The notes under the pieces are model-generated. The model saw nothing but the letters and a program-made list of their open reading frames with translations, made no database searches and was not told the origin of the DNA. Both the position numbers and the translations under genes were made by a program. Of a stretch of DNA of 64,000 nt, positions 1-42,831 are shown one piece after another (position 1 is the stretch's first letter; each line of letters starts with the position of its first letter). This DNA is from a bacterium (GTDB lineage Bacteria > Patescibacteriota > UBA1384 > CAILIB01): contig JBAXRQ010000001.1 of assembly GCA_037131105.1 (NCBI GenBank), forward strand, positions 386,039 to 450,038, read 5' to 3'.

Positions 1-1
1 T

Positions 2-601
2 GTACACCGAGGAGAGAATTGGGAAATAAAAAGCTTAGGGGAGATAGCCACCATTGAATATGGATATACGGAAAAGGCTAGAAGCAGTGGAGAGTATAGA
101 TTTGTAAGGATTACGGATACGGACGAGAACGGCTTGCTAAAAACCGAAAATAAAATGTATGTAAATTCCTTTGAGACAGTTGAAAGATTTCTTCTTAATA
201 GTGGAGACTTGTTAATGGCCAGGACAGGGGCCTCGGCAGGGAATGTACTTTTCTTTGAGGGCGATGAAAGAGCTGTGTTTGCCTCATACCTTATCAGGAT
301 AAAATTTAAAGGTGAAATACTTGCAAAGTTGTACTGGTATTTTTCAAGATCAAAACTATATTGGGATCAGGTTGAGCAATTATCGGCAGGATCAGCCCAA
401 CCGCAGTTTAATGGTGGCGCACTCAAACAGATAATGTTTCCTTATCCTCAGCCTCTTGCTGAGCAGTTAGTTATCATTGATAGGCTCGATACTCTTTCAA
501 TTTTGACGAGGAAACTCGAGACACTCTATCAACAGAAACTTGCTCTTCTCGAAGAACTCAAGCAGTCCATCCTTCACAAAGCCTTCTCCGGCGAGCTGTA
601 G
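2..601 (+). CDS. hsdS: Type I restriction-modification specificity subunit HsdS, 5'-truncated by the window edge
   Basis: The frame is open from nt 2 (..WEIKSLGEIATIEYGYTEKA..GEYRFVRITDTDENGLL..), which is a typical HsdS target-recognition domain. The C-terminal conserved coiled helix (LETLYQQKLALLEELKQSILHKAF) is present. HsdR lies immediately downstream. Confidence 0.8.
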   Translation, partial: VHRGENWEIKSLGEIATIEYGYTEKARSSGEYRFVRITDTDENGLLKTENKMYVNSFETVERFLLNSGDLLMARTGASAGNVLFFEGDERAVFASYLIRIKFKGEILAKLYWYFSRSKLYWDQVEQLSAGSAQPQFNGGALKQIMFPYPQPLAEQLVIIDRLDTLSILTRKLETLYQQKLALLEELKQSILHKAFSGEL

Positions 602-613
602 TACAATAATCCT

Positions 614-2929
614 ATGAGAAACGAATCCGAGACACGCGCCGAACTAATCGATCCCAAGCTTACAGCTGCTGGCTGGGGTGAGATTGAAGGCTCCCGGGTT
701 CTTCGTGAGTTCTACTTTACAGATGGCAAAATTCAGACAGGCGGGCTGCGTCTAAAGGCAGAAAAAGCCGACTACGTCCTGGTCTACAAAAACCAGAAGC
801 TGGCCATCATCGAAGCCAAGCAGGAAAGCCTGGCCGTAGGCGAAGGCGTTACCCAGGCCAAGGCCTATGCCGACAAGCTAAAGATCAACCAGACATATGC
901 CACCAACGGCAAGGAGATCTACGCCATCTCCATGAAGACTGGCGTTGAAGGTATTGTTGAAAAGTTCCCTACTCCTGAAGAACTCTGGAATCTTACCTTC
1001 TCCGACCACAACGAATGGAAGGAAAAGTTTGCCGCTGTACCCTTCGAAGACAAGGGTGGCACCCAGGCACCTCGCTTCTACCAGGAGATCGCCGTCAACC
1101 GCACCCTGAACGCCATTGCCGAGAACAAGCAGCGCATTCTCCTGACCCTGGCCACCGGTACGGGTAAGACCTTCATTTCCTATCAGATAGCTTGGAAGCT
1201 GTATCAGTCGAGATGGAACCTGGGTCGTGATGGTAGTCGAAGGCCACGGATTCTCTTTCTTGCTGATCGTAATATCTTAGCGAACCAAGCGTCAACTTCA
1301 TTTCCTGGATTTGAAGAAGATTCTATTGCCCGTATACGGCCTGCAGATATCAAGAAGAAAGGTGGTGTAATCACCAACGCAAGCATCTTCTTCACTATAT
1401 TCCAGACCTTCATGAGTGGGCCCAACGACACGCCCTACTTCGGCGACTATCCCAAGGATTTCTTCGACCTTATCATTATCGATGAGTGCCACCGGGGCGG
1501 TGCCCAGGACGAGTCCAGCTGGAGGGAGATACTTGAGTACTTCGAACCGGCCGTCCAGCTCGGCCTCACCGCCACTCCCAAGCGCAAAGACAACGTCGAC
1601 ACCTACCGCTACTTCGGCGAGCCGGTCTACGTTTACTCTCTCAAGGAAGGTATCAACGACGGCTTCCTGACCCCCTTCAAGGTCAAGCGGATTATGACCA
1701 CCTTGGACGACTACGTGTATACCTCCGATGATGAGGTCATTGAGGGCGACGTGCAGGAGGGTAAGCGCTACGAGGAGCCTGATTTCAACCGAATCATTGA
1801 GATCAAGGAGCGCGAGGCTAAGCGGGTGCGTATTCTGCTTGACGAGATCAATCAGAGCGAGAAGACCATAGTTTTCTGCGCCAACCAGCCTCATGCCGCC
1901 GCCGTGCGTGATCTCATCAACCAAATGAAGGAGAGCAGAGATCCTAATTACTGCGTACGGGTAACTGCTGATGACGGGGTACGAGGTGATCAGTTTCTGG
2001 ATGATTTTAAGGATACTGAGAAGACCATCCCTACTATTTTGACTAGCTCGCAGAAGCTTTCCACCGGTGTCGATGCCCGCAACATCCGCAACATCGTCCT
2101 GATGCGGACAGTGAATTCGATGATTGAGTTCAAGCAGATAGTCGGACGCGGGACGCGGCTCTTTGAAGGGAAGGAGTTCTTTACCATTCTGGATTTTGTC
2201 GACGCCTACAAGCTGTTCTCCGATCCTGAGTGGGACGGCGACCCTATCGAGGAAGTGGCCACTGGTGAAGAGAAGCCTGAGAAAACTTACGAGCCTCGGA
2301 ATCCAGTAGTACGTGAGCCAAAGGAGCCTTATGAGGCCAAGCCAAAGTTAAAGATCAAGCTGCGGGACGGCAAGGAGCGAGAGATCCAGCACATGGTCTC
2401 CACCTCGTTTTGGAGCGCCGACGGCAAGCCGGTCTCCGGCCAGGAGTTCATTGAAGGTATGTTTGGTGACCTGCCCCAATTTTTCAAGAGTGAGGAGGAG
2501 CTGCGCCGGATCTGGTCCGACCCGACTACACGTAAGAGACTATTGGAGAAGCTGGCTGAACACGGCTATGCCAAGGACCAGCTGACGAGCCTTCAGGAGC
2601 TAGTATCAGCCCAGAACAGTGATCTCTTTGACGTACTGGCCTATGTGGCCTTTGCCCTGAAGCCGATTACTCGCATAGCGCGGGTAACAGACTCCGTAGA
2701 TGCAATACTAAAGGGCTATGACGAAAAACAGGATGATTTCCTGCAATTCGTCTTGACCAAGTATGTTGAGAAGGGAGTTGAGGAGCTGGACGAGGAGAAG
2801 CTGCCGCAGCTGATTAATCTCAAGTACAGCACAGTTTCTGATGCGACACCCATCCTGGGTGATCCGGTAAAGATCAGGAGCATGTTCTTCGATATGCAAA
2901 AAGGGTTATATGGAAAAGTAAGGGCCTAG
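614..2929 (+). CDS. hsdR: Type I restriction enzyme R subunit HsdR (EcoEI-like, short form)
   Basis: N-terminal HSDR_N signature MRNESETRAELIDPKLTAAGWG. Helicase motif I LATGTGKT and motif II IIIDECHRG. An EcoEI_R_C-like C-terminal domain. Confidence 0.85.
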   Translation: MRNESETRAELIDPKLTAAGWGEIEGSRVLREFYFTDGKIQTGGLRLKAEKADYVLVYKNQKLAIIEAKQESLAVGEGVTQAKAYADKLKINQTYATNGKEIYAISMKTGVEGIVEKFPTPEELWNLTFSDHNEWKEKFAAVPFEDKGGTQAPRFYQEIAVNRTLNAIAENKQRILLTLATGTGKTFISYQIAWKLYQSRWNLGRDGSRRPRILFLADRNILANQASTSFPGFEEDSIARIRPADIKKKGGVITNASIFFTIFQTFMSGPNDTPYFGDYPKDFFDLIIIDECHRGGAQDESSWREILEYFEPAVQLGLTATPKRKDNVDTYRYFGEPVYVYSLKEGINDGFLTPFKVKRIMTTLDDYVYTSDDEVIEGDVQEGKRYEEPDFNRIIEIKEREAKRVRILLDEINQSEKTIVFCANQPHAAAVRDLINQMKESRDPNYCVRVTADDGVRGDQFLDDFKDTEKTIPTILTSSQKLSTGVDARNIRNIVLMRTVNSMIEFKQIVGRGTRLFEGKEFFTILDFVDAYKLFSDPEWDGDPIEEVATGEEKPEKTYEPRNPVVREPKEPYEAKPKLKIKLRDGKEREIQHMVSTSFWSADGKPVSGQEFIEGMFGDLPQFFKSEEELRRIWSDPTTRKRLLEKLAEHGYAKDQLTSLQELVSAQNSDLFDVLAYVAFALKPITRIARVTDSVDAILKGYDEKQDDFLQFVLTKYVEKGVEELDEEKLPQLINLKYSTVSDATPILGDPVKIRSMFFDMQKGLYGKVRA

Positions 2930-3061
2930 AATATCCGTGTGAATACCGGGGACAAACAATCTACCGCGAAATAGGCAGGAATCTTGGTCCTGAAGTGGTG
3001 GCTCGAGCCGTAACAATCTGTTCGGTAGTAGGGGATCCTCCCGTATGTTACGTATAGGGGG

Positions 3062-3613
3062 ATGTCTGCAAAAACGACTGCTTACGCGTTTATCGACAGC
3101 CAGAATCTCAACCTCGGTGTACGTTCCGCCGGATGGGTTATTGATTATCCAAAACTTCGCCTTTATCTAAAGAACAAGTTTGGTGTGAGTAAAGCATTCA
3201 TGTTCATTGGCTTTGTTGATGGCAACCAAGGACTGTACACCCGGCTGCAGGAGGCAGGTTTTATACTCGTCTTTAAGCCTACGGTTCGCTTTGTGGACCA
3301 TGGCAAGGAGACGCGCAAGGGCAATGTAGACGCCGAGCTGGTGCTCCATGCCGCTGCAATCGAATATCAGTACTATGACAAGGCGCTTATCATATCAGGA
3401 GACGGTGACTTTGCCTGTCTGGTCGAGTTCTTGGCTAGTCGAGGAAAGCTGTTGCATGTATGTACCCCGAATCAGCGTTACTCCAAGCTGCTTAAACCCT
3501 ACTCGCAGTATATTATCCGGATGGATAGCTTTAAGGAGTCTGTTTGCAAAACAAAAGACCGGCATCGGCGGTCGGTCGAAACCTTAGGCCTATCCGGTCA
3601 TGATGATAAGTAA
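3062..3613 (+). CDS. NYN-domain (LabA-like) predicted ribonuclease
   Basis: AFIDSQNLNLGVRSAGWVIDYPKLRLYL..., then FMFIGFVDGNQ and ISGDGDFACLVEFL, which match the NYN/PIN-like fold. An AGGGGG RBS precedes the start. Confidence 0.65.
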   Translation: MSAKTTAYAFIDSQNLNLGVRSAGWVIDYPKLRLYLKNKFGVSKAFMFIGFVDGNQGLYTRLQEAGFILVFKPTVRFVDHGKETRKGNVDAELVLHAAAIEYQYYDKALIISGDGDFACLVEFLASRGKLLHVCTPNQRYSKLLKPYSQYIIRMDSFKESVCKTKDRHRRSVETLGLSGHDDK

Positions 3614-3792
3614 AAAATATCATGAGAACATCGGTGCTGTCAAGCACAGGCATGCATTCATACCAATGTCTCCTCCCGTTTCCATGAGACTTGACGATGA
3701 CGGATATGCGCATAGACGCATTCTAGCAGGTTGCACCCCAGACCTTCCTTTTATCTGCCACTTCTGGTATAACCCCAGCATGGAGGTGCGCA

Positions 3793-4134
3793 ATGCGAGC
3801 ACCATTATTTGAAGGACCGCTGTCCCAGGAGGCCCTGGTGAGCGGAAAGCTGCCGGAAAACGTAGCCTTGCAGCTTCTGCTGGACTCACCGGTCCAACCC
3901 GGTGACAACCGCTACTATGTGGAATACCAGGTGGAGGGAACCTCGGTATTCATGTGTGTCTTCGATACCATGGAGGCCAATCGTCTGGTATGTCAGCAGG
4001 TGGTCGCCGCTGCCCTGCACTACTATCCTGACATTGGCATAAGCCACACTCTGGCAGAACGCTGGGCACGGTACGCCGAAGGCGGCATCCTTGACCTGGA
4101 TATCTGGAGCGGTGTGGGCTGCGTCGCAGCATAA
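3793..4134 (+). CDS. Hypothetical 113-aa protein directly upstream of the PafA/Dop-like gene
   Basis: A GGAGGTG RBS lies 4 nt upstream of the ATG. The gene is followed by an intrinsic terminator. I recognise no family. The C-terminus (..GVGCVAA) is not Pup-like (no GG[EQ]). Confidence 0.5.
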   Translation: MRAPLFEGPLSQEALVSGKLPENVALQLLLDSPVQPGDNRYYVEYQVEGTSVFMCVFDTMEANRLVCQQVVAAALHYYPDIGISHTLAERWARYAEGGILDLDIWSGVGCVAA

Positions 4135-4165
4135 ACAAATCATATGTGAGGGAAGCCCCTGACGC

Positions 4166-4196
4166 GCCGTCGACCTTCGGGTCGGCGGCCGTTTTC
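4166..4196 (+). terminator. Rho-independent terminator (GCCGTCGACC-ttcg-GGTCGGCGGC plus CGTTTTC)
   Basis: A 10-bp stem with one G-U wobble, a tetraloop and a T-run. A near-identical copy follows the next gene. Confidence 0.6.
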
Positions 4197-4212
4197 ATCT
4201 AAGCTACACTGA

Positions 4213-4240
4213 TTGACAATACCGCAGCCTCTGCTATTCT
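4213..4240 (+). promoter_or_regulatory. Sigma70-like promoter for the PafA/Dop-like gene (TTGACA-16-TATTCT)
   Basis: TTGACA at 4213-4218, a 16-nt spacer, TATTCT at 4235-4240. The leader then carries GGGGAGGTG before the ATG at 4290. Confidence 0.45.
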
Positions 4241-4289
4241 GCGGACAACTGCCTGCAAGGGCAGATTAACAAATCGGGGAGGTGGCGTC

Positions 4290-5642
4290 ATGGCTGCTGT
4301 GAATGGACCGCGTTGGAGCATATTTGCCCGTGCCTACGGTATGGAAACGGAATATGGTTTGACCTGTCAGATCAACCACAAGGACGGATCCATAGAGATG
4401 GGCGACTCCATTGTCGCCGCAAAAATGCTGCTGACTGACTACGATCATGTCAGTACCTTCGTGTCGACGGGCGGGCGGCTCTATCTCGACGGTGAGACCT
4501 GTACCCTCTGTCATGTTGAGTACGCAACTCCTGAGTGCCTGACACCGCTCAGCGTAGCCTTGTCCCACCATGCCGGTGACCGGATACTGCAGCGCATGGC
4601 TGCTGAAAGGAGACGGGGTAGGAATGAGATCCACGTCATCAGAAACAACAGGGACTATTGCGGCACCTCTTTTGGCTGCCATGAGAACTACCTGGTTTCT
4701 AGGAGCGTGCCTTTCGACCAGCTTGTCCGTAGCTTGGTTCCGTACCTTGTTACCGGTCCGCTGGTATTTGGGCCGGGAGACGTAGCCTTGGACCGTGACT
4801 ATACTCATGACCCACGGGCGAAGATTATGAATCTCATCTCGGAAGACAAGACCCTTTCGGGGGAGCGATGCATCGTCAACTCTCGTGATAAGTGTTATCT
4901 TTCTGAGCCCCTTGACACGCAGTTTAGGAGGCTGCACATTACCTGTAGGAGCGCCAATGTGTCCCAGGGCGCCACGTTCATGAAAGTCGCCACCCTCTCG
5001 ATACTGCTTACCATGATCGAGAACGGCTGGACCTTTAACGGACTGTATCCAATAGACCCTTTGGCCGCCATGAAAGAGTGCAATACCAAGATTGACGGGC
5101 GCGCGCTCGTGAAGCTGGCTGACGGAAGCACTATGACGGCTTGGAATATCCAATCGGTACTCCAGGAGTCGGCCCGACAGTTCTTGAGCGAGCAGGAGGG
5201 TAGGGGTGAGATTGTTCCTATGTGGGCGAAACGTGCCGTTCGGCGCTGGGGAGAGGCTCTGCGAGACATTCGCGATTACGATATCGACGAGTGGCCGGAG
5301 AGCTCATACTGGGTGGATTGGTGGGTAAAGCACCATGCTCTCAGGTCGTATCTCGAGGCGCTTCCCGACGCGACTGACGATGAGCTTCGCACTATGGAAC
5401 TGCGCTACCATCACCTCGACCCGCGGCAAAGCGTGGCAAAAGAGATGGTGGATGCTGGACTGATGGAGTATTTGTTTCAGGACCATCAGCTGGAGTCTGC
5501 CAGTCGAAATCCCTCACCGCATCCGCGGGCACAGGAGAGGGCCTATTGGTTGCAGCGACGCGCTACCGGCGACAGTGTATCGTGTGTGTCTTGGGAGAAT
5601 GTCCGTGTAAATGGCGAAAAGAAGGTGTTAAGGTTTTTTTGA
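4290..5642 (+). CDS. Pup-ligase/deamidase family protein (PafA/Dop homolog, glutamine-synthetase-like carboxylate-amine ligase)
   Basis: The signature N-terminus GMETEYGLTC matches PafA GIETEFGVTC. GGRLYLDGETCTLCHVEYATPEC matches PafA GARLYLDVGSHPEYATAEC. Its length of 450 aa is PafA-like. Confidence 0.75.
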   Translation: MAAVNGPRWSIFARAYGMETEYGLTCQINHKDGSIEMGDSIVAAKMLLTDYDHVSTFVSTGGRLYLDGETCTLCHVEYATPECLTPLSVALSHHAGDRILQRMAAERRRGRNEIHVIRNNRDYCGTSFGCHENYLVSRSVPFDQLVRSLVPYLVTGPLVFGPGDVALDRDYTHDPRAKIMNLISEDKTLSGERCIVNSRDKCYLSEPLDTQFRRLHITCRSANVSQGATFMKVATLSILLTMIENGWTFNGLYPIDPLAAMKECNTKIDGRALVKLADGSTMTAWNIQSVLQESARQFLSEQEGRGEIVPMWAKRAVRRWGEALRDIRDYDIDEWPESSYWVDWWVKHHALRSYLEALPDATDDELRTMELRYHHLDPRQSVAKEMVDAGLMEYLFQDHQLESASRNPSPHPRAQERAYWLQRRATGDSVSCVSWENVRVNGEKKVLRFF

Positions 5643-5666
5643 AAAGGGAAAAATATGAAATTATGG

Positions 5667-5700
5667 CGGCCGCTGACCTTCGGGTCGGCGGCCGTTTTCG
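5667..5700 (+). terminator. Rho-independent terminator, second copy of the same element
   Basis: GGCGGCCGCTGACC-ttcg-GGTCGGCGGCCG plus TTTTCG. It shares the 26-nt block CGACCTTCGGGTCGGCGGCCGTTTTC with 4171-4196. Confidence 0.6.
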
Positions 5701-5721
5701 TTTGCTTGAGCATATGTAAGC

Positions 5722-5758
5722 CCCCATAAAACCCAAAATCCCGCACATGTGTGCGGGA
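5722..5758 (-). terminator. Terminator for the minus-strand small membrane protein gene (perfect palindrome CCCGCACATGTGTGCGGG then a U-run)
   Basis: An 18-bp perfect palindrome at 5740-5757. On the minus strand it is followed by ATTTTGGGTTTTA. Confidence 0.5.
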
Positions 5759-5783
5759 CCAGGATGCGCCAGGTGAGTGATTC

Positions 5784-6044
5784 TCACTTTGGTATGAAGA
5801 CTGCTACGGCTAGAAGGAGCAGGAAGCCGATAGCTGCGTAGCCGGATAGCGTGGTCATGGCTTTCCAAAATCGATGTGCAGGGCAGGGAGTGACGGTGCT
5901 TTTGCGGAGTCCGACTTTGACTTCGGACCACACTACCACTTTTTTCAGTTCCCATTTTTCGCCCCAGACTGAGGTGATGAGAATGCCAGCCACAAAAAGC
6001 GCAAAGCATATCCCAAACAGACCGCCAAGTATATTTTGCATCGT
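5784..6044 (-). CDS. Small two-TM membrane protein (hypothetical)
   Basis: An internal ATG at 6044 is preceded by a strong AAAGGAGAG RBS. Two hydrophobic helices. The ORF-track start at 6107 lacks an RBS. Confidence 0.5.
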   Translation of the reverse strand, partial: TMQNILGGLFGICFALFVAGILITSVWGEKWELKKVVVWSEVKVGLRKSTVTPCPAHRFWKAMTTLSGYAAIGFLLLLAVAVFIPK

Positions 6045-6126
6045 GATCTCTCCTTTCGCTCGGCCACTGCCGAAATGCGATACCCGACTATACCTCAAAA
6101 CGCCCACAATGTCAATGGGCTAACCC

Positions 6127-6561
6127 CTAGGAAAGCGCCTCCACCGCCTTCTCGATCCTCCTTTTTCTTGTCTCCTCAGCCTTTGCCTCGTTTATGGACC
6201 GCACCCATTCCTTCTTATGCGAAGGGGCCAGCTTTTCAAACTTTTCCATACCCTTCTCGCCCAGCGCCGCTTTCAAATCCTCGGGCACCTCTACGGTTCG
6301 CGGTGCGAGGTCCAGCTCCAAGGTAAGCTCTACATCCTGTCCTGCCTCAACTCCGGCAGCCTCACGATGCTCCTTGCTGAGTGATAACAAGAAGTCTTCG
6401 CCGTAGACGCCTACTGTATTTTGGTAGGTATAGCCGTTCACGGTAACCTTTACCGGCGGACGCTTCATGTCGCTGAGCGTGGCGATGATCTCGGCAGGGA
6501 TCTTGAATCCGGTGACGCCGGGACGGGCTTCGCGGACGGTGGTAGTGAAGGTGACGCTCAT
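6127..6561 (-). CDS. DUF1905 plus YdeI/OmdA-domain protein (bacteriocin-protection family)
   Basis: ..KVTVNGYTYQNTVGV.. is a DUF1905 beta-barrel motif. The C-terminal ..SHKKEWVRSINEAKAEETRKRRIEKAVEAL.. is an OmdA-type motif. Confidence 0.6.
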   Translation of the reverse strand: MSVTFTTTVREARPGVTGFKIPAEIIATLSDMKRPPVKVTVNGYTYQNTVGVYGEDFLLSLSKEHREAAGVEAGQDVELTLELDLAPRTVEVPEDLKAALGEKGMEKFEKLAPSHKKEWVRSINEAKAEETRKRRIEKAVEALS

Positions 6562-6740
6562 GCCTTCAAGCTAAGGCCAGCTTCCTTGAGGGCCTGGCGC
6601 AGGGCCTTGATGCTGCCGGGCCCAAATCCGTGTAGACGATTAAGCTCTGCCTCAGTGCGTGCGGCTACGTCTTCGAGTGTCTTGATGCCGGCGCCGGCCA
6701 GGGCACGCTGGGCGGGAGCTGCAAGTGTGGGCAGATTCAT
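6558..6740 (-). CDS. Small helix-hairpin-helix-like protein (hypothetical)
   Basis: A 60-aa ORF whose stop overlaps the downstream gene by ATGA. It carries an HhH-like GIKTLEDVAARTEAELNRLHGFGPGSIKAL. There is no RBS, so it may be spurious. Confidence 0.35.
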   Translation of the reverse strand: MNLPTLAAPAQRALAGAGIKTLEDVAARTEAELNRLHGFGPGSIKALRQALKEAGLSLKA

Positions 6741-6887
6741 GGGAGTTGTTTATGGGTATAGTGATACCACGGATATCGTAGCGTATCCGCCTCGTGCCCA
6801 CAAATTGTCTACACCTCACCTAGAGCCCTAAACGTAACCGAGACGCAGCGGGGATGCTGCGTCTCGTGCTGACGGGTGCGTCCTCTT

Positions 6888-7265
6888 CTATTGATGAGGA
6901 CAGGTCCTAGGGGCTCTTTCTTCCAGACCTATAAGGTTCTCCACCGTCCCATCCGGGTTGGTGACCTCGTATGCGACAAGGTACTTACCGTAGCGCTGCT
7001 TTTGGATGCGCAATATCCAGTTGAGGGCCTTTCGATTGCGGGCTTGCACACAGAATGCCAGGGGCCATTCTGATGATTCTTCTCTGACCTCCCCTGGTGG
7101 GGTGGAAAGAGTGACGTGAAGGGTGTAGCAGGTGCTAGCGTCGCGTAACCTGCCGAGCAGCGGCTCCCCATCCTCCTCGTAATAGGTGATGCCGCGCCTC
7201 TTTAGCCGCCATCCAGCGATAATATCAGCGCAGATAATCCAACGATATGCTATCCAGTTCCACAT
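6888..7265 (-). CDS. Hypothetical protein
   Basis: An internal ATG at 7265 (MWNWIAYRW...) is preceded by an AGGAGGA RBS. The longer ORF-track start lacks one. Confidence 0.45.
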   Translation of the reverse strand: MWNWIAYRWIICADIIAGWRLKRRGITYYEEDGEPLLGRLRDASTCYTLHVTLSTPPGEVREESSEWPLAFCVQARNRKALNWILRIQKQRYGKYLVAYEVTNPDGTVENLIGLEERAPRTCPHQ

Positions 7266-7382
7266 AGTTCCTCCTGAGATCTGGCATAGTGGCACCGTAC
7301 CGCGCACCGCATGATCAGTCAAGGCGCACTCTAGTGGAAGCTAAGGACATGGGGGTGCTATACTGAAGGTACCAACTCACGA

Positions 7383-8279
7383 ATGCTCCCCGTGAAACGC
7401 TATACCCGCATCATCACTGTCCTGCTGCTGGTCCTGGGCTTCGTCCTGGTCCTGGCGGCTATCACCCGGGGGGACAACTTCCAGATCCTCAATCCAAAGG
7501 GGACGGTTGCGGCCCAGCAGATGCATCTGATGGTAGTGGTCACCCTGCTGATGCTGGTGGTCGTGGTGCCTGTCTTCGTGCTGACCTTTGGCATAGTCTG
7601 GAAGTACCGAGATGACAATCCCACTGCCAAGTATGCACCCAAATGGGATCATAACCTACTGCTGGAGTCGGTCTGGTGGGGGCTGCCCCTGCTGGTCATC
7701 GTCATCATAGGAGTACTGGCCTGGAGAAGCAGCCACGATCTGGATCCGTATAAGTCACTGAACTCTAGTGTGAAGCCGGTAACGGTGGAGGTAGTCGCCC
7801 TGCAGTGGAAGTGGCTCTTCATCTATCCCGACCAGGGTGTGGCTTCGGTAAACTACGTCCAGTTCCCCAAGGGGACGCCGGTGAACTTCTATATTACCGC
7901 GGACGCTCCCATGAACTCCTTCTGGATACCCCAGCTCGGCGGCCAGGTCTACGCCATGCCGGGTATGGCCACCCAGCTGCATCTGATGGCAGACAATGCC
8001 GGGGACTTTGCCGGCTCTTCAGCCAACCTGAGTGGTACAGGATTCGCCTCTATGAAGTTTACCGCCCACGCCAGTACCCAGGAAGACTTTGATGCCTGGG
8101 TGGCCTCGGCTAAGCTCTCAGGCCAGACTCTGGATTCGGTACAGTACGCGACGCTGGCTAGGCCGAGCGAGGGTACGCCGGTGCAGCAGTATGCGCTAGG
8201 GGAAGACAATCTCTTCCATGCTGCTATGATGAAGTTCATGAGTCCTTCCGCCATTACTTCCTATACGAACGTGCAATGA
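7383..8279 (+). CDS. cyoA: Cytochrome bo3-type quinol oxidase subunit II
   Basis: An N-terminal TM pair and a cupredoxin domain with [27 protein letters not shown]. There are no CuA ligands, so this is the quinol-oxidase type. Confidence 0.8.
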
Positions 8280-10246
8280 GCCTCCTCGGACGCCTTACTT
8301 TGGCCGCTTTCCAGCACAACCTCATCACTATGGGGGGTGTGGCTACCATGATCGGCGGGGTGATCGCCGTCGTGGTCATTATTACCTACTTCCATCGCTG
8401 GACCTGGCTCTGGACCGAGTGGCTGACCACTACCGACCATAAGAAGATAGGGGTGATGTACCTGGTGGTGGCCTTTGTCATGCTGCTGCGAGGAATAGGG
8501 GATGCCGTCATGCTCAGGGCCCAGCAGGTACTGGTAGGGTCGGGCCAAGGTTTTCTCTCAGCCGACCAGTTCCAGCAGGTCTTCTCAGCCCATGGCACCA
8601 TCATGATCTTCTTCGTAGCCATGGGACTGATGTTCGGCCTTTTGAACCTGATAGTGCCCCTGCAGATCGGCTCCCGCGACGTGGCTTTTCCCTTCCTGAA
8701 CTCCATGAGCTTCTGGCTCTATGTAGCAGGTGTCATACTTATTAATCTCTCGCTGATAGTGGGGGATTTTGCCGCAACAGGCTGGCTGGCCTACCCTCCC
8801 TTATCCGAGCTGGCCTATAGTCCGGGGGTGGGAGTAGATTATTGGATATGGAGCCTGCAGATAGCCGGTATCGGCAGCTTGGTCTCCGGCATCAACTTCC
8901 TGGTCACCATCCTGAAGGAGCGCTGCGAAGGCATGACCCTTATGAACATGCCGATATTCATCTGGTCAGTGCTTGGAAGCATGGCTCTGGTCATTACTGC
9001 TTTCCCTATTCTTACCGTGACCCTGACTCTCTTGGCCTTGGACCGTACCCTTGGCATGCACTTCTTTACAGCCGGGGGCGGGGGGAGTGCCATGATGTAC
9101 ATCAACCTGATCTGGGCCTGGGGACATCCTGAGGTATATATCCTGATACTGCCTGCCTTCGGGATATTTTCTGAGATAGTCGCGACCTTTTCCAAGAAGC
9201 GACTCTTCGGCTACGCCTCTATGGTCTGGGCCATCATCGCCATCACCTTCCTGTCCTTTACGGTCTGGCTGCACCACTTCTTCACCATGGGAGGCGGAGC
9301 TGACGTCAATGCCTTCTTCGGCATCATGACCGCCGTCATCGCCGTGCCTACCGGGGTAAAGGTCTTCAACTGGCTATTTACCATGTACCGTGGGCGCATC
9401 TCGCTGACTACCCCTATGTATTGGTTCCTGGGCTTTGTGGTGACCTTTACCATAGGCGGAATGACCGGGGTACTGATGGCGGTGCCACCTATAGACTTCC
9501 AGGTGCACAACAGTCTCTTCTTAGTGGCGCACTTCCATAATATGATTATCGGCGGGGTAGTCTTCGGGTATTTCTGTGGCTTTACCTACTGGTTCCCTAA
9601 GTTTACCGGGTTCAAGCTGAATGAGCGCCTGGGAAGGTACGCCTTCTGGTGCTGGCTGGTAGGCTTCCTGCTGGCCTTCGTTCCTCTGTATATCCTGGGG
9701 ATCATGGGCGCTACGAGGCGTCTGGACAGCTACGACCCTTCGATGGGTTGGCAGAGCCTGTTCATAGTGGCGGGGGTTGGGGTGCTGGTGATCTTAGCAG
9801 GAGTAGGCTTCCAAGTGCTGCAGATCGCCGTGAGTATCTACTTGCGCAAGCAGAACCTGGATACTACTGGGGATCCCTGGGACGGGCGCACCTTGGAGTG
9901 GTCCACTAGCTCGCCGCCGCCGTTCTATAACTTTGCAGTGCTGCCTAACGTCGATGAGCGCGATCCGTTCTGGGAAGCCAAGCAGGCCGGAACTGCGCAT
10001 GAAAAGCCTGTTTATGAGGATATCCATATGCCCAAGAATACCGCTATAGGCATATATATAGCCGCTGCCTTTTTCTGCATCTCCTTTGGCATGGTCTGGC
10101 ATATGTTCTGGCTGTCAGTACTGGCTTTGCTGGCGGTCATCCTGCTTGTCATACTTCGTATGTCAGATGATGATACCGGTATGATCATCCCGGCAGCAGA
10201 AGTGGAAAGGATAGAGTCTGCCCGAATCCATAAGACCCAGTCATGA
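8276..10246 (+). CDS. cyoB: Quinol oxidase subunit I (heme-copper oxidase catalytic subunit)
   Basis: A 12+ TM protein with [24 protein letters not shown] and [17 protein letters not shown]. Its start overlaps the cyoA stop (ATGA). Confidence 0.9.
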
Positions 10247-10830
10247 GCGAGCACACCCTTCTACGTCAGGAGCATTCGGACTCCACCGCCGTCTTTGGCT
10301 TCTGGGTCTACCTGATGACTGACTGCGTGCTGTTCGCGGCTCTGTTTGCCGTCTACGCGGTGCTGCGGACCGGTACCTTCGGTGGGCCGGGCGGGTCTGA
10401 GATCTTCAACCTGCCCAACATCCTGGTAGAGACCTTCCTGCTGCTCACCAGTAGCTATACCTGCGGACTGGCCATGCTGGCTGCCCATAAGGGGCGTCGA
10501 AACGAGGTGGTGGCCTGGTTCGGCGCTACCTTCGTCCTCGGATTTTCCTTTCTAGCGCTTGAGCTTTCCGAGTTCCACCAGCTTCTTCTGGACGGAAACG
10601 GTCCTGACCGCAGCGCGTTCCTGTCGTCCTACTTCACCTTGGTCGGTACCCATGGTCTCCACATAACCATCGGTCTACTCTGGATGCTGGTGCTGATGTC
10701 CCAGGTGCTTAAGCGGGGACTGAAGCCTATGACCTTGAACCGTCTGGCCTTACTCAGCCTCTTCTGGCATTTCCTTGACCTGATCTGGATCTTCATATTT
10801 ACCATCGTTTACCTGATGGGAGCCAAATGA
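10243..10830 (+). CDS. cyoC: Quinol oxidase subunit III
   Basis: A five-TM COX3-family protein. Its start overlaps the cyoB stop (ATGA). Confidence 0.8.
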
Positions 10831-11192
10831 GCATACCCAAGCACCATCTTCCTGCCGAAGGGAACCTGGCCTCGTATACTGCGGGTTTCCTGCTTTCGGT
10901 GATACTTTCCGGGGCCGCCTATCTGGCGGTGGAGCAGGGGCTGGTAGCCGGCACTCAGCTGATAGTGATGTTGGTAGCCTTTGCCATTCTCCAGCTCATG
11001 GTGCAGCTGGTCTTCTTTCTGCACCTGGACACCGTCTCCTCGCGCTGGAAACTGCTCGTCTTCTTGTTTATGGCTATGGTAGTGGCTATTCTGGTAGGAG
11101 GAAGTATCTGGATCATGAATAATCTCAACTACAATATGTCTCCTGCCGCCACCAACTCCTTCATCATCCATGACGAGGGGGTTACCAAGTGA
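10827..11192 (+). CDS. cyoD: Quinol oxidase subunit IV
   Basis: A small three-TM protein in the operon position. Its start overlaps the cyoC stop (ATGA). Confidence 0.7.
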   Translation: MSIPKHHLPAEGNLASYTAGFLLSVILSGAAYLAVEQGLVAGTQLIVMLVAFAILQLMVQLVFFLHLDTVSSRWKLLVFLFMAMVVAILVGGSIWIMNNLNYNMSPAATNSFIIHDEGVTK

Positions 11193-12058
11193 ATCTCAAA
11201 GGAACTCTGAAGGCCTATTACGTCCTGGCCAAACCCGGTATCATCTACGGAAACCTCATTACCGCTTTGGCCGGTTTCTTTTTGGCTTCAGACGGGCATA
11301 TCCAGTTCGGAGTGCTACTGGCAATGGCGGTAGGTACATCTTTGGTGATGGGCTCGGGCTGCGTGTTCAATAACTATATGGACCGGCGCATCGACGCCCT
11401 GATGGCCCGAACCAAGCAGCGGGCCCTGGTGACCAAGACTATCTCAAAGGGGGCGGCGCTTACCTATGGGACGGTGCTGGGCTTTCTGGGAGCTGCCATC
11501 CTGGCCTACTGGACCAATCCGCTTGCCGCATCAGTAGCGGTGGCCGGCTGGATACTTTATGTGCTGGTATACGGCATCGCCAAGCGGCGCACCGTGCACG
11601 GGACTCTGATCGGCAGCATCTCAGGAGCGGTGCCTCCGGTGATCGGATACGTGGCGGTTAGCAACCGTCTGGATCTGGCCGCCTTTTTGCTCTTCCTGAT
11701 GCTGGTGTTCTGGCAGATGCCCCATTTCTACGGCATCGCCATGTACCGGCTGCATGACTACGCTGAAGCTAAGATCCCGGTACTCCCGGTAGTAAAGGGT
11801 ATGCGGGCAGCCAAAGTACAGAGCCTGGTCTATATTATTCTCTTTGGCCTCGCCGCCGCCTCGCCGACTATCTACGGCTACACCGGCTATATCTACCTGG
11901 CGGTGATGGCGGTGCTTTCACTGGCCTGGCTGCGGGTGGCCCTTACCGACTTCAATGGGAAGTTCGATGCGGTCTGGGGTCGCAAGGTGTTCAGATTCTC
12001 GCTGGTGCTTATTACCGCTCTGAGTGTTATGATCTCTATAGGCGGGATACTGCCGTAG
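11189..12058 (+). CDS. cyoE: Protoheme IX farnesyltransferase (heme O synthase)
   Basis: A UbiA-family protein with NNYMDRRIDALMARTKQRAL. It starts at a GTG that overlaps the cyoD stop. Confidence 0.85.
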   Translation: MNLKGTLKAYYVLAKPGIIYGNLITALAGFFLASDGHIQFGVLLAMAVGTSLVMGSGCVFNNYMDRRIDALMARTKQRALVTKTISKGAALTYGTVLGFLGAAILAYWTNPLAASVAVAGWILYVLVYGIAKRRTVHGTLIGSISGAVPPVIGYVAVSNRLDLAAFLLFLMLVFWQMPHFYGIAMYRLHDYAEAKIPVLPVVKGMRAAKVQSLVYIILFGLAAASPTIYGYTGYIYLAVMAVLSLAWLRVALTDFNGKFDAVWGRKVFRFSLVLITALSVMISIGGILP

Positions 12059-12076
12059 CAATTCGTAACAATTCAT

Positions 12077-12334
12077 ATGCCGATACTTCTGCACGTACTG
12101 ATTGCCTTGGCCAGCGTCGCTTATACTACGTATCTGTTCTTCTTCCCAACCCAGAAGGGGCTGCAGCTGGCCCAGGCTTTGGTGGGTCTTACCCTGATTT
12201 CCGGGACCTATCTCGTCATAATCATGCCCGCCCATATGGTGCAGAGCTGCCTTACCGGCCTTGCCTACATAGGATTCGTAGCGGTCGGCTTAGTACTTGC
12301 CAAACATCGTCTTGTAGAGCAAAACACAAATTAG
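12077..12334 (+). CDS. Small two-TM membrane protein (hypothetical), last gene of the cyo operon
   Basis: An 85-aa hydrophobic ORF 19 nt after cyoE. Confidence 0.4.
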   Translation: MPILLHVLIALASVAYTTYLFFFPTQKGLQLAQALVGLTLISGTYLVIIMPAHMVQSCLTGLAYIGFVAVGLVLAKHRLVEQNTN

Positions 12335-12357
12335 TAGCTCCAGAAGCCAATAAGGTA

Positions 12358-12386
12358 TTGACATTGGCGCGCTTTTCTGGTTAAAT
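12358..12386 (+). promoter_or_regulatory. Near-consensus sigma70 promoter (TTGACA-17-TTAAAT)
   Basis: TTGACA at 12358-12363, a 17-nt spacer, TTAAAT at 12381-12386. A roughly 70-nt structured leader with AGGAGTAAGAG precedes the ATG at 12463. Confidence 0.55.
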
Positions 12387-12462
12387 GCTCTCGATAGATT
12401 GTGACCTAAGGAAACGCACGCACCGAGAGGTGCGGCCATTTCCCGGTCAAGAGGAGTAAGAG

Positions 12463-13047
12463 ATGAAGAGCTGGAAAATGGGCGCATTCGCGCTCGGTAT
12501 TGGCCTTACGGCCGTGAGTATGTTTCTGACACCGACAGCGCGCGCGGCCGACGACGTCTCCACCAATGCGGTGGCTGCGACGATGACTACGCCGCCGCCA
12601 TTGCCGCCGGTGATCCAGGCGTTCCTCGGGACAACGGTCAGCCCGGAGCCCAACAAAAGCATGGGGGTGCCGGTCGCCTCCGGCGACACAACCGCCAAGT
12701 TCCCGCTCATGTTTAAACTGCGCCTGGGCGGCTCCGACTTTGCCGCATCGCAATACGTTGTTTATGCCCAGCTCATGGCTGCGGTCAAAAACAGTGCCGG
12801 TGCGATCACAGGCTGGACACCGGTCCCCGGCGCCAGGATCACGGCTTCCAACGTGCCGGCAGCGCCCGGCATGGTGAGCACCTGGAAACAAGCCTACGCC
12901 AATGCTTGGAATGCTCCGGACAACACCTACAAATGGACGTTGACCGTCATCTGCGGCGTTGCGCTCGCTCCGATCGACTCCGGATGGATGGTCAAGACAA
13001 CGGTGCCTCCGGCACCGACGTCCGCTACCATTCCACAGGTCGGCTAA
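12463..13047 (+). CDS. Secreted protein of unknown function (signal peptide, Pro-rich N-terminus)
   Basis: MKSWKMGAFALGIGLTAVSMFLTPTARA|ADD is a signal peptide. The gene has a good promoter and RBS upstream and a terminator downstream. I recognise no family. Confidence 0.6.
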   Translation: MKSWKMGAFALGIGLTAVSMFLTPTARAADDVSTNAVAATMTTPPPLPPVIQAFLGTTVSPEPNKSMGVPVASGDTTAKFPLMFKLRLGGSDFAASQYVVYAQLMAAVKNSAGAITGWTPVPGARITASNVPAAPGMVSTWKQAYANAWNAPDNTYKWTLTVICGVALAPIDSGWMVKTTVPPAPTSATIPQVG

Positions 13048-16353: not shown

Positions 16354-16803
16354 ATGAATGCACTGAAGGCAGAAGAGGGATGTAGGTGGGTTGTCATCAT
16401 AATCGGTGACGGGAGGGAGCCGTATTGCCTATGGAGAGTATGCATAGATCCTAGTGGAGCGACGACGTACGAAGCCCTACCCTGCGCTATACAGCCCGAC
16501 ACAAAGCCCCACCCTGATCATCCCGGGATGAAGCTTCTAATGCCCTATATAGGGAAAGATGGGTCTGCTCAGCCAAGTCCCTTCGGGAATGAGGAGCGAA
16601 GCGCCGTCGCCGCGATAGCCGCAACGCTCGCACGTATCGCCGTTTATCGACCGGACCTGCAGGTTACGAAATGGCTTGCAGCATGTATGCATGCCAGCAG
16701 AGTATCTGATACTCAGCTAAGGATTGCTGACAGATGGCCGTTGATGGCGCTTGCGAAGAGGTGGCCTGTCAACGGGGATCCGGGATATTTGCCCTACAAC
16801 TGA
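16354..16803 (+). CDS. Hypothetical protein
   Basis: An internal ATG at 16354 follows an AAGGAGGTG RBS. The longer ORF-track form overlaps the convergent DUF1697 gene. Confidence 0.45.
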   Translation: MNALKAEEGCRWVVIIIGDGREPYCLWRVCIDPSGATTYEALPCAIQPDTKPHPDHPGMKLLMPYIGKDGSAQPSPFGNEERSAVAAIAATLARIAVYRPDLQVTKWLAACMHASRVSDTQLRIADRWPLMALAKRWPVNGDPGYLPYN

Positions 16804-16892
16804 GAGCGACAAAGGACTCTCTTATTTGCGGACCCGGCGGCTGCTACACCGCCGGATTTCCTTTTGTCCTCACCCCGCCTCTTGCATCCCCG

Positions 16893-16901
16893 TGGTATAA
16901 T
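16893..16901 (+). promoter_or_regulatory. Extended -10 promoter (TGgTATAAT) positioned for leaderless transcription of the PcsB-like gene
   Basis: TATAAT at 16896-16901 with TG at 16893-16894. The ATG at 16908 sits exactly 7 nt downstream. There is no SD sequence. Confidence 0.45.
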
Positions 16902-16907
16902 GACGGC

Positions 16908-18140: not shown

Positions 18141-18217
18141 CGCCGGTAAAGATCTTGAAACATCGGCGAGTTCATTGTATAAGGAATCAAGCGACAGTCG
18201 TTTGAAAAGGAGCGGTA

Positions 18218-18706: not shown

Positions 18707-18721
18707 TCCCAAGCCTATAAG

Positions 18722-18755
18722 GGCGGATGTCTCACAGAGATGTCCGCCTTTTTCA
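18722..18755 (+). terminator. Rho-independent terminator (GGCGGATGTCTC-acag-GAGATGTCCGCC then TTTTTC)
   Basis: A 12-bp stem with two G-U pairs, a tetraloop and a T5 run. Confidence 0.6.
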
Positions 18756-19016: not shown

Positions 19017-19084
19017 GGCCTTTTCAGTGTAGCGCAGACCCCGGGAGCCTTGTCTATATCTTTCAGGAGTGGTACTCTGTTCTA

Positions 19085-42770: not shown

Positions 42771-42831
42771 GTACTCACTGCTGTAAGCCAGTTCACTGGA
42801 CAGCCTGTGTGAGATAGGTTTGAATAAGGGT

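What the first reader, a model, noticed from the sequence alone, without database searches (positions are those of the whole stretch)
4290..5642. Stand-alone PafA/Dop-family (Pup-ligase-like) gene next to a type I RM system, with no Pup or proteasome partners
The 450-aa protein carries the diagnostic N-terminal G(I/M)ETE(F/Y)G and GxRLYLDxG..EYATPEC motifs of the Pup ligase/depupylase family. Nothing within about 8 kb encodes a Pup-like protein (C-terminal GG[EQ]), a proteasome, or Mpa/ARC. The gene has its own promoter, sits between duplicated terminators, and lies directly downstream of hsdS, hsdR and a NYN nuclease. That is a defense-island-like setting. It could be a ligase acting on a non-Pup substrate or tag, possibly within an undescribed conjugation or defense module.
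Basis: partly seen in the sequence, partly recalled or inferred. Interest (0 to 1): 0.8.

Follow-up and report, generated by a model that had tools for sequence, protein, structure and literature searches.

The report
Solitary divergent PafA/Dop-like ligase gene
This is an intact gene for a very divergent relative of the bacterial protein-tagging enzymes PafA and Dop, from a rare lineage that always occurs alone without the usual tag or proteasome genes; its position beside restriction and Shedu defence genes looks accidental, so it is a modest curiosity, not a new defence system.

Summary
ORF 4290-5642 (+) encodes a full-length Pup_ligase-family protein (Pfam 290 bits). It has a promoter-like site and sits between two copies of a 31-nt terminator. 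It lies downstream of hsdS, hsdR and a NYN gene. No Pup, proteasome or Mpa gene occurs in the 64-kb window or the 5.7 kb upstream.

It is neither PafA nor Dop: it scores 242 and 216 bits against equivalog cut-offs of 551 and 492. Canonical relatives are about 30% identical. It groups with about ten rare proteins (30-43% identity) from Patescibacteria, Saccharibacteria and Abditibacteriaceae MAGs, in a third clade (NJ bootstrap 87%).

The AlphaFold model (pLDDT 93) matches Dop and PafA-Pup at TM 0.83-0.84, against 0.46 for GCS2. The ATP, phosphate and catalytic residues are kept, as are two residues that hold the Pup C-terminal tail. So it is probably an ATP-dependent amide ligase or amidase for an unlinked, unidentified tag.

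The defence reading is not supported. Nine other clade loci share no neighbours, PADLOC gives no hit, and the gene's GC (0.55) matches the host rather than SduA, HsdS and NYN (0.39-0.48). The query also carries odd substitutions at near-invariant positions (E201K, D221S), so its activity is uncertain.

The parts
4213..4240 (+). sigma-70-like promoter candidate, TTGACA-16 nt-TATTCT with TG before the -10 element
   Evidence: 10 of 12 consensus matches. This is a consensus match only, not shown to be functional.
4276..4282 (+). Shine-Dalgarno-like GGGGAGG, 7 nt upstream of the ATG
   Evidence: Read directly from the sequence.
4290..5642 (+). 450-aa PafA/Dop-family (Pup_ligase, PF03136) protein of a divergent third clade. 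NCBI record MEI6477762.1, named 'proteasome accessory factor PafA2 family protein'.
4166..4196 (+). Terminator-like hairpin with a T-run, copy 1 of the 31-nt direct repeat. It ends the upstream NYN-70aa-113aa unit.
5665..5699 (+). Terminator-like hairpin (14-bp stem, TTCG loop) with a T-run, copy 2 of the repeat. It ends the ligase unit.
134..4134 (+). Context only, not part of the unit. Tail of a type I RM (hsdS 134-601, hsdR 614-2929), then NYN (3062-3613) and two overlapping orphan ORFs (3600-3812, 3793-4134). hsdM and a Shedu SduA gene lie just upstream of the window (L081 2598-5125).
   Evidence: Low GC of SduA, HsdS and NYN.

Best explanation
The ORF is a chromosomally native, monocistronic gene. 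It encodes a member of a rare, deep-branching third clade of the PafA/Dop (Pup-ligase) family. The clade is found in Patescibacteria/Saccharibacteria-type, Abditibacteriaceae and other uncultured bacteria, and it always occurs as a solitary gene.

Shown: family membership, the complete two-domain PafA/Dop fold, retention of the nucleotide-, phosphate- and metal-binding residues and the catalytic Asp, and solitary organisation across the clade.

Inferred: the enzyme binds ATP and phosphorylates a gamma-carboxylate (or amide) of a C-terminal Glu/Gln-type residue held by R193 and the S127 pocket. It then forms, or hydrolyses as Dop does, an amide or isopeptide bond. The tag or substrate is encoded elsewhere in the genome and is not a recognisable Pup, and the reaction is not coupled to a proteasome. 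Whether the enzyme is a ligase or an amidase cannot be told from the sequence.

Its position beside the type I RM / Shedu / NYN island is coincidental.
For: Family and fold.
- Pfam Pup_ligase scores 290 bits over the full length.
- The AF2 model has pLDDT 93.4 and pTM 0.93.
- Foldseek matches Dop 4B0R and PafA-Pup 4BJR at E about 1e-32 and TM 0.83-0.84. GCS2/YbdK reaches only TM 0.46.

Separate clade.
- NCBIfam PafA scores 241.8 against a cut-off of 551.3, and Dop 215.8 against 492.3.
- Canonical homologues among 5.8 billion clusters are at most 34% identical.
- A full HMMER scan of 1.84 billion representatives finds about ten closer proteins: 43%, 40%, 39% and 36% identity at 246-328 bits, against roughly 180 bits or less for those outside the clade.
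- Named members come from Patescibacteria, Abditibacteriaceae and Saccharibacteria MAGs.
- In the NJ tree they form a clade apart from the PafA and Dop clades. Bootstrap support is 87% for the extended clade and 69% for the core.
- The features are mosaic: no Dop-loop, as in PafA, but Dop-like spacing after the catalytic Asp in clade members.

Active site kept. All 16 family-invariant columns are present: G17, E21, D67, E77, E82, D122, H131, G161, G163, R176, R193, R214, H216, K347, R413, W435. Mapped to published roles:
- D67 = Cglu PafA D64 / Mtb D57 / Dop D94, the catalytic Asp (PMC5952411, PMC8599861).
- R199 and H216 = Dop R227 and H241, which bind phosphate (PMC8599861).
- R413 and W435 = PafA R418 and W440, which contact adenine and ribose (PMC12053664).
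- R193 = PafA R201, the salt bridge to the Pup C-terminus (PMC8599861).
- S127 = Mtb S119, in the Pup C-tail pocket (PMC5952411).
- R138, R199 and R213 = PafA substrate site 2, R137/R207/R218 (PMC10465538).

Solitary organisation and no defence link.
- Nine other clade loci, seven with several kb of flank, have unrelated neighbours.
- All-versus-all BLASTP of +-7 kb flanks in ten loci finds no shared gene apart from BipA in two of them.
- By contrast, Nitrospira moscoviensis has a contiguous Mpa-Dop-PrcB-PrcA-PafA cluster.
- PADLOC gives no hit.
- The gene's GC is host-like, while SduA, HsdS and NYN are low in GC.
- A terminator lies before the gene, and it has its own promoter-like site and RBS.
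- The ORF is intact and identical in independent assemblies: ENA, Logan and NCBI.
Against: - No candidate tag was found. No Pup-like ORF occurs in about 70 kb here or in the fetched flanks of the nine other clade loci. The tag step is therefore inference only.
- The query departs from positions conserved in at least 90% of the family, where its own clade relatives mostly do not: N60T, P76V, E201K, H203Y (RDEPH becomes RDKCY), D221S (Asp in the other 59 aligned sequences) and D267K. It also has a 5-residue insertion (GETCT) directly after the catalytic D67. Activity or specificity may be altered or lost.
- PafA substrate site 1 (R32/R38) is not kept; the query has M37 and A44.
- The canonical invariants R156 and G220 are lost in the core of the clade. 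Their roles are unknown to me.
- The tree is a distance tree with moderate support, not a maximum-likelihood analysis.
- Only 7% of the 949-kb contig was visible, so a pup/proteasome locus elsewhere is not excluded.
Confidence: 0.5

Rival explanations
1. Routine pupylation. The gene is simply the PafA (or Dop) orthologue of an organism whose pup, dop and proteasome genes lie elsewhere on the chromosome.
For: The fold and catalytic residues are those of PafA/Dop. pafA is often unlinked from pup in Actinobacteria (own knowledge). Most of the 949-kb contig could not be inspected.
Against: The score is less than half of both equivalog cut-offs. The protein falls in a third clade with 87% NJ bootstrap. 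It is at most 34% identical to any canonical PafA or Dop among billions of proteins. None of ten clade loci shows a second paralogue, Pup, a proteasome or Mpa within +-7-10 kb, whereas the Nitrospira genes are clustered.
Confidence: 0.12
2. Carboxylate-amine ligase for a non-protein substrate. The clade has been re-purposed to ligate or hydrolyse a small molecule such as a gamma-glutamyl compound, and no longer uses a protein tag.
For: The family belongs to the GS/GCL carboxylate-amine ligase superfamily (PMC7947786). The genes are solitary with no partner. Clade-specific changes affect canonical invariants (R156, G220, the alpha-loop region) and PafA site 1 is lost. Mtb PafA can pupylate free lysine (PMC5952411).
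Against: The whole PafA/Dop architecture is retained, including the C-terminal domain and helical regions (TM 0.83-0.84 against 0.46 for GCS2). The residues that hold the Pup C-terminal tail (R193, S127) and the protein-substrate site-2 arginines are also retained.
Confidence: 0.17
3. Component of an anti-phage or conjugation module that acts together with the neighbouring type I RM, Shedu and NYN genes.
For: The gene lies immediately downstream of hsdM-sduA-hsdS-hsdR and NYN. Ubiquitin-like conjugation is used in some defence systems (own knowledge).
Against: The context is not conserved in any of the nine other clade loci. PADLOC gives no hit. A terminator and a separate promoter-like site isolate the gene. 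Its GC is host-like, unlike SduA, HsdS and NYN. No relatives occur in IMG/VR or BFVD.
Confidence: 0.05
4. Functionally decaying or catalytically inactive copy. In this particular genome the gene is a relic or a non-enzymatic binder.
For: There are query-only substitutions at near-invariant positions (D221S, E201K, N60T, P76V, H203Y) and an insertion next to the catalytic Asp. One JGI contig shows the gene broken by two 2-nt insertions.
Against: The 450-codon ORF is intact and identical in three independent assemblies. All 16 family-invariant residues are kept. The model is very confident. The gene has a good RBS and a promoter-like site. The JGI indels are homopolymer-length differences typical of sequencing error.
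Confidence: 0.12

Closest known systems
PafA, the Pup-protein ligase (TIGR03686; structures 4B0T, 4BJR)
   Same: Same Pfam family and two-domain fold (TM 0.84). Similar length, and no Dop-loop. GxExE, RLYxD, H.EY..PE, GCHENY, RRLH, the R..R C-terminal motif and the Trp are all present. The catalytic Asp, the Pup-tail Arg (R201) and the Ser pocket are kept, as are the site-2 arginines.
   Different: About 30% identity. The equivalog score is 242 bits against a cut-off of 551. It lies in a separate clade. The alpha-loop motif (H.WEG.SSA..RS) is absent. Site 1 (R32/R38) is not kept. The protein ends at the 'DPF' position, without the last C-terminal helix. No pup, pafBC or proteasome gene lies nearby.
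Dop, the depupylase/deamidase (TIGR03688; 4B0R, 7OXY)
   Same: Same fold (TM 0.83, best Foldseek E-value). The phosphate-binding residues R227 and H241 and the catalytic D94 have equivalents. Clade members have Dop-like spacing between the Asp and HPEY.
   Different: There is no roughly 40-residue Dop-loop. Dop-specific His95/96 is absent. The score is 216 bits against a cut-off of 492. The gene is not next to mpa, pup or prcBA, unlike the Nitrospira Dop.
Single-copy PafA/Dop homologues of Planctomycetes and sporadic homologues in other phyla (Hecht et al. 2020, PMC7947786)
   Same: These are also outside both the PafA and Dop clades, also about 30% identical to both, and of unknown function. 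They show that orphan third-type homologues are already known to exist.
   Different: Those proteins partly align with the Dop-loop. The present clade lacks it, comes from other lineages (Patescibacteria, Saccharibacteria, Abditibacteriaceae), and was not mentioned in any paper I could search. I did not test the direct relationship between the two groups.
UBact/Pup-proteasome clusters of Nitrospirae and candidate phyla (own knowledge; Nitrospira locus)
   Same: Non-actinobacterial PafA/Dop-family genes.
   Different: Those are canonical PafA and Dop orthologues in a contiguous Mpa-Dop-PrcB-PrcA-PafA cluster. The gene here is solitary and from a different clade.
GCS2/YbdK and other carboxylate-amine ligases
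   Same: The same superfamily, with the same ATP-dependent acyl-phosphate chemistry.
   Different: Only TM 0.46 and 9-10% identity. There is no Pfam hit to GCS2.

Membership tests
Pup_ligase family (Pfam PF03136, PafA/Dop) | Profile match above the gathering score over the whole domain | tested here: met
   290.3 bits against a cut-off of 25, covering profile positions 2-440 of 441.
Pup_ligase family (Pfam PF03136, PafA/Dop) | Two-domain PafA/Dop fold: a GS-like beta-sheet cradle plus a C-terminal domain | tested here: met
   AF2 pLDDT 93.4. Foldseek TM 0.83-0.84 to 4B0R and 4BJR.
Pup_ligase family (Pfam PF03136, PafA/Dop) | Conserved nucleotide, metal and phosphate ligands and the catalytic Asp | tested here: met
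   All 16 family-invariant columns are kept. However, the near-invariant E201, H203 and D221 are changed in the query.
PafA (Pup-protein ligase, TIGR03686 equivalog) | Score at or above the curated equivalog cut-off | tested here: not met
   241.8 bits against 551.3.
PafA (Pup-protein ligase, TIGR03686 equivalog) | Phylogenetic placement inside the PafA clade | tested here: not met
   The NJ tree places it in a separate clade with 87% bootstrap. This is a distance method only.
PafA (Pup-protein ligase, TIGR03686 equivalog) | A Pup substrate (C-terminal GGQ/GGE tag) encoded in the genome | tested here: inconclusive
   None found in the 64-kb window plus 5.7 kb upstream.
PafA (Pup-protein ligase, TIGR03686 equivalog) | Ligation of Pup to lysine | not testable with these tools
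   Requires biochemistry.
Dop (depupylase/deamidase, TIGR03688 equivalog) | Score at or above the curated equivalog cut-off | tested here: not met
   215.8 bits against 492.3.
Dop (depupylase/deamidase, TIGR03688 equivalog) | Dop-loop insertion of about 40 residues after beta1/alpha1 | tested here: not met
   The protein is 450 aa. The Dop alignments skip chain residues about 18-72, and no insertion appears in A1 or A2.
Dop (depupylase/deamidase, TIGR03688 equivalog) | Linkage to mpa/arc, pup and prcBA | tested here: not met
   Absent from the window. Present in the Nitrospira comparison locus.
Known anti-phage defence systems (PADLOC-DB 2.0) | Match to a defence-protein model | tested here: not met
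   No hit for the ligase or for the 70-, 113- and 85-aa neighbours. Only HsdM, HsdR, SduA and NYN hit.
Known anti-phage defence systems (PADLOC-DB 2.0) | Conserved co-localisation with defence genes in relatives | tested here: not met
   Nine other clade loci contain no defence genes and share no neighbour. The sample is small.
GCS2 / YbdK carboxylate-amine ligases | Profile or fold match better than to PafA/Dop | tested here: not met
   No Pfam GCS2 hit. TM 0.46 against 0.83-0.84 for PafA/Dop.

The most novel reading that the evidence does not exclude
The solitary third clade may be the enzyme of an unrecognised tagging system. It would conjugate, or remove, a non-Pup tag encoded elsewhere. 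Alternatively, in episymbiotic Patescibacteria, whose cultivated members live on Pup-bearing Actinobacteria, it might act on host-derived Pup or on host proteins. This would be a protein-modification pathway independent of the proteasome and of any known partner genes.
Probability: 0.12. Interest if true: 0.75.

Novelty: new variant of a known kind. Interest (0 to 1): 0.38.

Why it matters
Pupylation is regarded as an actinobacterial and Nitrospira trait, tied to pup, dop and usually a proteasome. This clade of PafA/Dop-fold enzymes keeps the catalytic machinery. It is always encoded alone, in ultra-small or poorly known bacteria. That suggests the fold has a second use that has not been studied: another tag, another substrate, or an ancestral-type activity. 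Working it out would inform how the Pup system evolved and what these reduced genomes use it for. It does not add a new defence system.

Tried and rejected
1. Metagenome scan with the clade alignment: the single pattern chosen gave no confirmed locus. A hand-made degenerate pattern for W[ILV]DWW[AV]K.[HN] recovered only the window's own JGI copy and two short clade loci.
2. The shorter form of that pattern, without the final [HN] position, run on IMG/VR gave 13 chance matches and no relative.
3. Word-indexed homologue searches missed nearly all clade members. Only the exhaustive HMMER scan found them.
4. Taxonomy of the host through its ClpC: the best hits are 60% identical and unnamed, so this was uninformative. 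The flavokinase is 50% identical to that of a Patescibacteria MAG, which is only a weak hint.
5. Pup search by phmmer with Mtb Pup, by GG[QE] or Q/E-ending ORFs, and by Pfam on neighbouring small ORFs: nothing. A single-sequence Pup query is weak, and I had no UBact profile. The UBact paper is not in the library.
6. The large unknown proteins downstream of the ligase in two relatives (1015 aa and 772 aa) are not homologous, E = 2.1.
7. An apparent hsdS length difference between two assemblies is only a gene-calling difference; the DNA is 100% identical.
8. The apparent frameshifts in JGI contig L099 are homopolymer-length differences, probably errors.
9. The AFDB Foldseek library was not available.
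10. Rfam: no RNA family in 1-13000.
11. I could not map the Pup-groove contacts residue by residue, because model coordinates are not returned and the contact lists are only in figures.
Full report
**1. Observation**

ORF 4290..5642 (+) is real: 450 codons, an ATG start, and GGGGAGG 7 nt upstream. The cited motifs are present, YGMETEYG at residues 16-23 and GGRLYLDGETCTLCHVEYATPEC at 61-83.

Pfam assigns the whole protein to Pup_ligase PF03136 (290.3 bits, E 3.6e-86, profile positions 2-440 of 441).

The upstream genes are as described: the C-terminal part of hsdS (134-601), an EcoAI-type hsdR (614-2929) and a NYN-domain gene (3062-3613). Two overlapping orphan ORFs of 70 and 113 aa follow.

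A 31-nt terminator-like direct repeat flanks the gene at 4166-4196 and 5669-5699. Its 25-nt exact core occurs only at these two places in 64 kb, with 0 expected. A TTGACA-16-TATTCT promoter-like site lies at 4213-4240.

No Pup, proteasome or Mpa/ARC gene exists in the window or in the 5.7 kb upstream. This rests on Pfam gene lists, phmmer with Mtb Pup on all six-frame segments, and a scan of Q/E-ending small ORFs.

**2. Source**

The exact protein is NCBI MEI6477762.1, 'MAG: proteasome accessory factor PafA2 family protein [bacterium]', on a 949-kb contig. It is also present in an ENA assembly and a Logan assembly that are 100% identical over the shared 18 kb.

The host is an unclassified, poorly sampled lineage. 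Its ClpC is only 60% identical to the nearest database protein. The window carries cyoABCD-cyoE, carotenoid genes, pentose-phosphate genes and class I RNR.

**3. What the protein is**

It is neither PafA nor Dop by curated criteria: TIGR03686 scores 241.8 bits (cut-off 551.3) and TIGR03688 scores 215.8 bits (cut-off 492.3).

Word-indexed searches of 5.8 billion clusters and of 185,579 species genomes return only canonical PafA and Dop at 27-34% identity. One roughly 29%-identical clade member (P0140) appears only in the profile search.

An exhaustive HMMER scan of 1.84 billion representatives finds 3,193 family members but only about ten closer ones. P0132 is 43% identical at 328 bits, P0133 40%, P0134 39%, P0135 36%, P0136 34%, and P0138-P0141 30-36%. 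Hits outside the clade score about 180 bits or less.

Where the members are named, they come from 'Patescibacteria group bacterium' MAGs (MBU6389297.1, MCC2631928.1) and an Abditibacteriaceae MAG (HEX8234973.1). A Candidatus Saccharibacteria MAG carries a further member (L001).

In an NJ tree of 94 sequences these proteins and the query form a clade apart from the Dop and PafA clades. Bootstrap support over 200 replicates is 87% for the extended clade and 69% for the core.

Clade signatures include HLTCRDANVS in place of HVIVGDANM, S-S-x-W-I-D-W-W-A-K, PS(S)HxRAxERA, and a C-terminus ending F-x-F with no final helix.

The features are mosaic. There is no Dop-loop, as in PafA. Clade members have Dop-like spacing between the catalytic Asp and HPEY. 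The alpha-loop resembles neither enzyme, judged against the discriminating positions tabulated in PMC7947786.

**4. Fold and active site**

With a 60-sequence alignment, AlphaFold2 gives pLDDT 93.4 and pTM 0.93. Foldseek finds Dop (4B0R) and the PafA-Pup complex (4BJR) at E about 1e-32 and TM 0.83-0.84. GCS2/YbdK reaches only TM 0.46. This rejects the alternative of a different ligase family.

All 16 family-invariant columns are present in the query. Mapped onto published roles:

| Query residue | Equivalent | Role | Source |
|---|---|---|---|
| D67 | Cglu PafA D64 / Mtb D57 / Dop D94 | catalytic Asp | PMC5952411, PMC8599861 |
| R199, H216 | Dop R227, H241 | bind phosphate | PMC8599861, |
| R63, Y65 | Dop R90, Y92 | hold the alpha-phosphate | PMC8599861, |
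| R413, W435 | PafA R418, W440 | contact adenine and ribose | PMC12053664, |
| R193 | PafA R201 | salt bridge to the Pup C-terminus | PMC8599861, |
| S127 | Mtb S119 | pocket for the Pup C-terminal tail | PMC5952411, |
| R138, R199, R213 | PafA R137, R207, R218 | substrate site 2 | PMC10465538, |

Site 1 (R32/R38) is not kept.

The query has peculiarities that its own clade relatives mostly lack:
- N60T, P76V, E201K and H203Y (RDEPH becomes RDKCY).
- D221S, where the other 59 aligned sequences have Asp.
- D267K.
- A GETCT insertion right after D67, which adds two Cys.

I could not assign roles to E201 or D221, so whether this particular enzyme is fully active is open.

**5. Context in relatives**

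| Locus | Source | Neighbours of the ligase |
|---|---|---|
| P0132 | unnamed metagenome | ClpP(-), 152 aa and 42 aa upstream; a 1015-aa unknown downstream |
| P0346 | Abditibacteriaceae | between a 3-keto-disaccharide hydrolase-like gene and a BsuPI-domain gene |
| P0134 | JGI contig | after a cupin gene |
| P0139 | unnamed metagenome | between a PBP-like gene and a sortase gene |
| P0136 | Patescibacteria | followed by a 772-aa unknown and an MFS gene |
| P0141 | Patescibacteria | followed by a 207-aa unknown and an M23 peptidase gene |
| L001 | Saccharibacteria | between an FtsA-like gene and a coiled-coil protein gene |

All-versus-all BLASTP of every stop-to-stop segment of at least 30 aa within +-7 kb in ten loci finds no shared gene. 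The only exception is BipA in two related loci. The two large downstream unknowns are unrelated.

For contrast, the Nitrospira moscoviensis Dop sits in a contiguous Mpa-Dop-PrcB-PrcA-PafA cluster. Solitary organisation is therefore a property of the clade, and the defence neighbourhood is a property of this genome only.

**6. The neighbouring island**

Upstream of the window the island reads ArsP, HsdM, a Shedu SduA gene (PADLOC 328 bits) inserted between hsdM and hsdS, then HsdS, HsdR and NYN.

| Gene(s) | GC |
|---|---|
| SduA | 0.39 |
| HsdS | 0.43 |
| NYN | 0.48 |
| 70-aa ORF | 0.47 |
| Ligase gene | 0.550 (GC3 0.64) |
| Window overall | 0.546 |
| Ten long host genes | 0.54-0.58 (GC3 0.57-0.71) |

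The ligase has no PADLOC match. It has no relatives in IMG/VR or BFVD. GenBank phages contain one record with a distant (29%) match, and that record has two PafA/Dop-like matches. The defence-module reading is therefore not supported.

**7. Most likely mechanism**

Shown: the protein is a PafA/Dop-fold enzyme with an intact ATP and phosphate site and the catalytic Asp.

Inferred by homology with the PafA/Dop/GS mechanism: ATP phosphorylates the side-chain carboxylate (or amide oxygen) of a terminal Glu/Gln-like residue held by R193 and the S127 pocket. An amine then attacks (ligase), or water does (amidase).

The retention of the tail-binding residues, the site-2 arginines and the whole helical and C-terminal architecture favours a peptide or protein tag over a small molecule, but only weakly. 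The tag is unidentified and unlinked.

I give 0.5 to this overall reading, 0.17 to a small-molecule substrate, 0.12 to routine pupylation with partners elsewhere, 0.12 to an inactive relic, and 0.05 to a defence role.

**8. Comparison with what is known, and novelty**

The family is known, and NCBI already names the protein 'PafA2 family'. Orphan homologues outside PafA and Dop have been reported for Planctomycetes and sporadically in other phyla (PMC7947786).

What appears undescribed is this specific clade: it lacks the Dop-loop, is always solitary, and occurs in Patescibacteria, Saccharibacteria and Abditibacteriaceae. No paper in the searchable library links pupylation with these groups.

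I rate it a new variant of a known kind, of moderate interest.

**9. Caveats**

- The phylogeny is distance-based.
- Only nine other clade loci were examined, seven of them with several kb of flank.
- 93% of the host contig was not visible.
- The Pup search used one sequence and simple patterns.
- The promoter and terminator calls are consensus matches only.

Noticed in passing
L081 2598-8640 (window -3113..2929): A Shedu nuclease gene (SduA, PADLOC 328 bits, GC 0.39) is inserted between hsdM and hsdS of an EcoAI-type type I RM operon. The hsdS start overlaps the sduA end. This is a compact RM+Shedu island with much lower GC than the host.
   Followed up: partly
window 3062-4134: NYN (183 aa), a 70-aa ORF and a 113-aa ORF overlap by 14 and 20 nt and end at a terminator, so they look like one operon. 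The two small proteins have no Pfam or PADLOC match and no homologues outside this organism. NYN has weak PADLOC hits (NYN/LabA-like, HEC-09).
   Followed up: partly
window 4166-4196 and 5669-5699: A 31-nt terminator hairpin is duplicated exactly around the 1.5-kb promoter+gene unit and occurs nowhere else in 64 kb. This could mark insertion of the ligase cassette at a pre-existing terminator, or a local duplication. The origin is unexplained.
   Followed up: partly
L099 (JGI Ga0194049_1002376), equivalent to window 4572 and 4877: A 99.8%-identical contig carries two 2-nt homopolymer-type insertions (CC to CCCC; a C in the window read as TTT) that split the ligase into fragments. These fragments are stored in protein databases as separate proteins (P0137, P0122), and one of them is the 90%-cluster representative. 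The insertions are probably sequencing or assembly errors.
   Followed up: yes
window 4488-4502 (residues 67-71) and Cys 71, 74, 83: There is a query-specific GETCT insertion after the catalytic Asp, giving C-x2-C plus the conserved PEC cysteine. Together with E201K and D221S, this gives the protein an active-site surrounding that is atypical even within its own clade.
   Followed up: partly
window 5784-6041 (-): A convergent 85-aa ORF with two predicted hydrophobic segments has its own strong promoter-like site (TTGACA-17-TATAGT at 6115-6087) and a terminator at 5760-5737. It has no family match.
   Followed up: no
window 7383-12058: A complete cyoABCD plus cyoE (heme O synthase) operon lies in an unclassified MAG whose largest contig is under 1 Mb. 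Carotenoid genes (crtI, polyprenyl synthase, phytoene synthase, lycopene cyclase, 36.4-41.4 kb) are in the same window. The nearest ClpC homologue is only 60% identical, so the lineage is deep and poorly sampled.
   Followed up: partly
window 16734-20860: A Peptidase_C39_2 protein (468 aa), a 162-aa unknown and an ABC exporter (591 aa) lie together. This looks like a bacteriocin or peptide export cluster.
   Followed up: no
GenBank MT835496.1 (Bacteriophage sp., human faeces, 159 kb) 42225-43361: This is the only phage-collection record with a PafA/Dop-like match (29% identity). It has two such places in the record, so it may be a mis-binned actinobacterial contig or a phage carrying pupylation genes.
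   Followed up: no
L116 17168-18979 and L124 2-1594: In two clade relatives a BipA/TypA GTPase gene (72% identical between them) lies within 1-6 kb of the ligase gene. This is probably residual synteny between related genomes. It is not seen in the window.
   Followed up: partly
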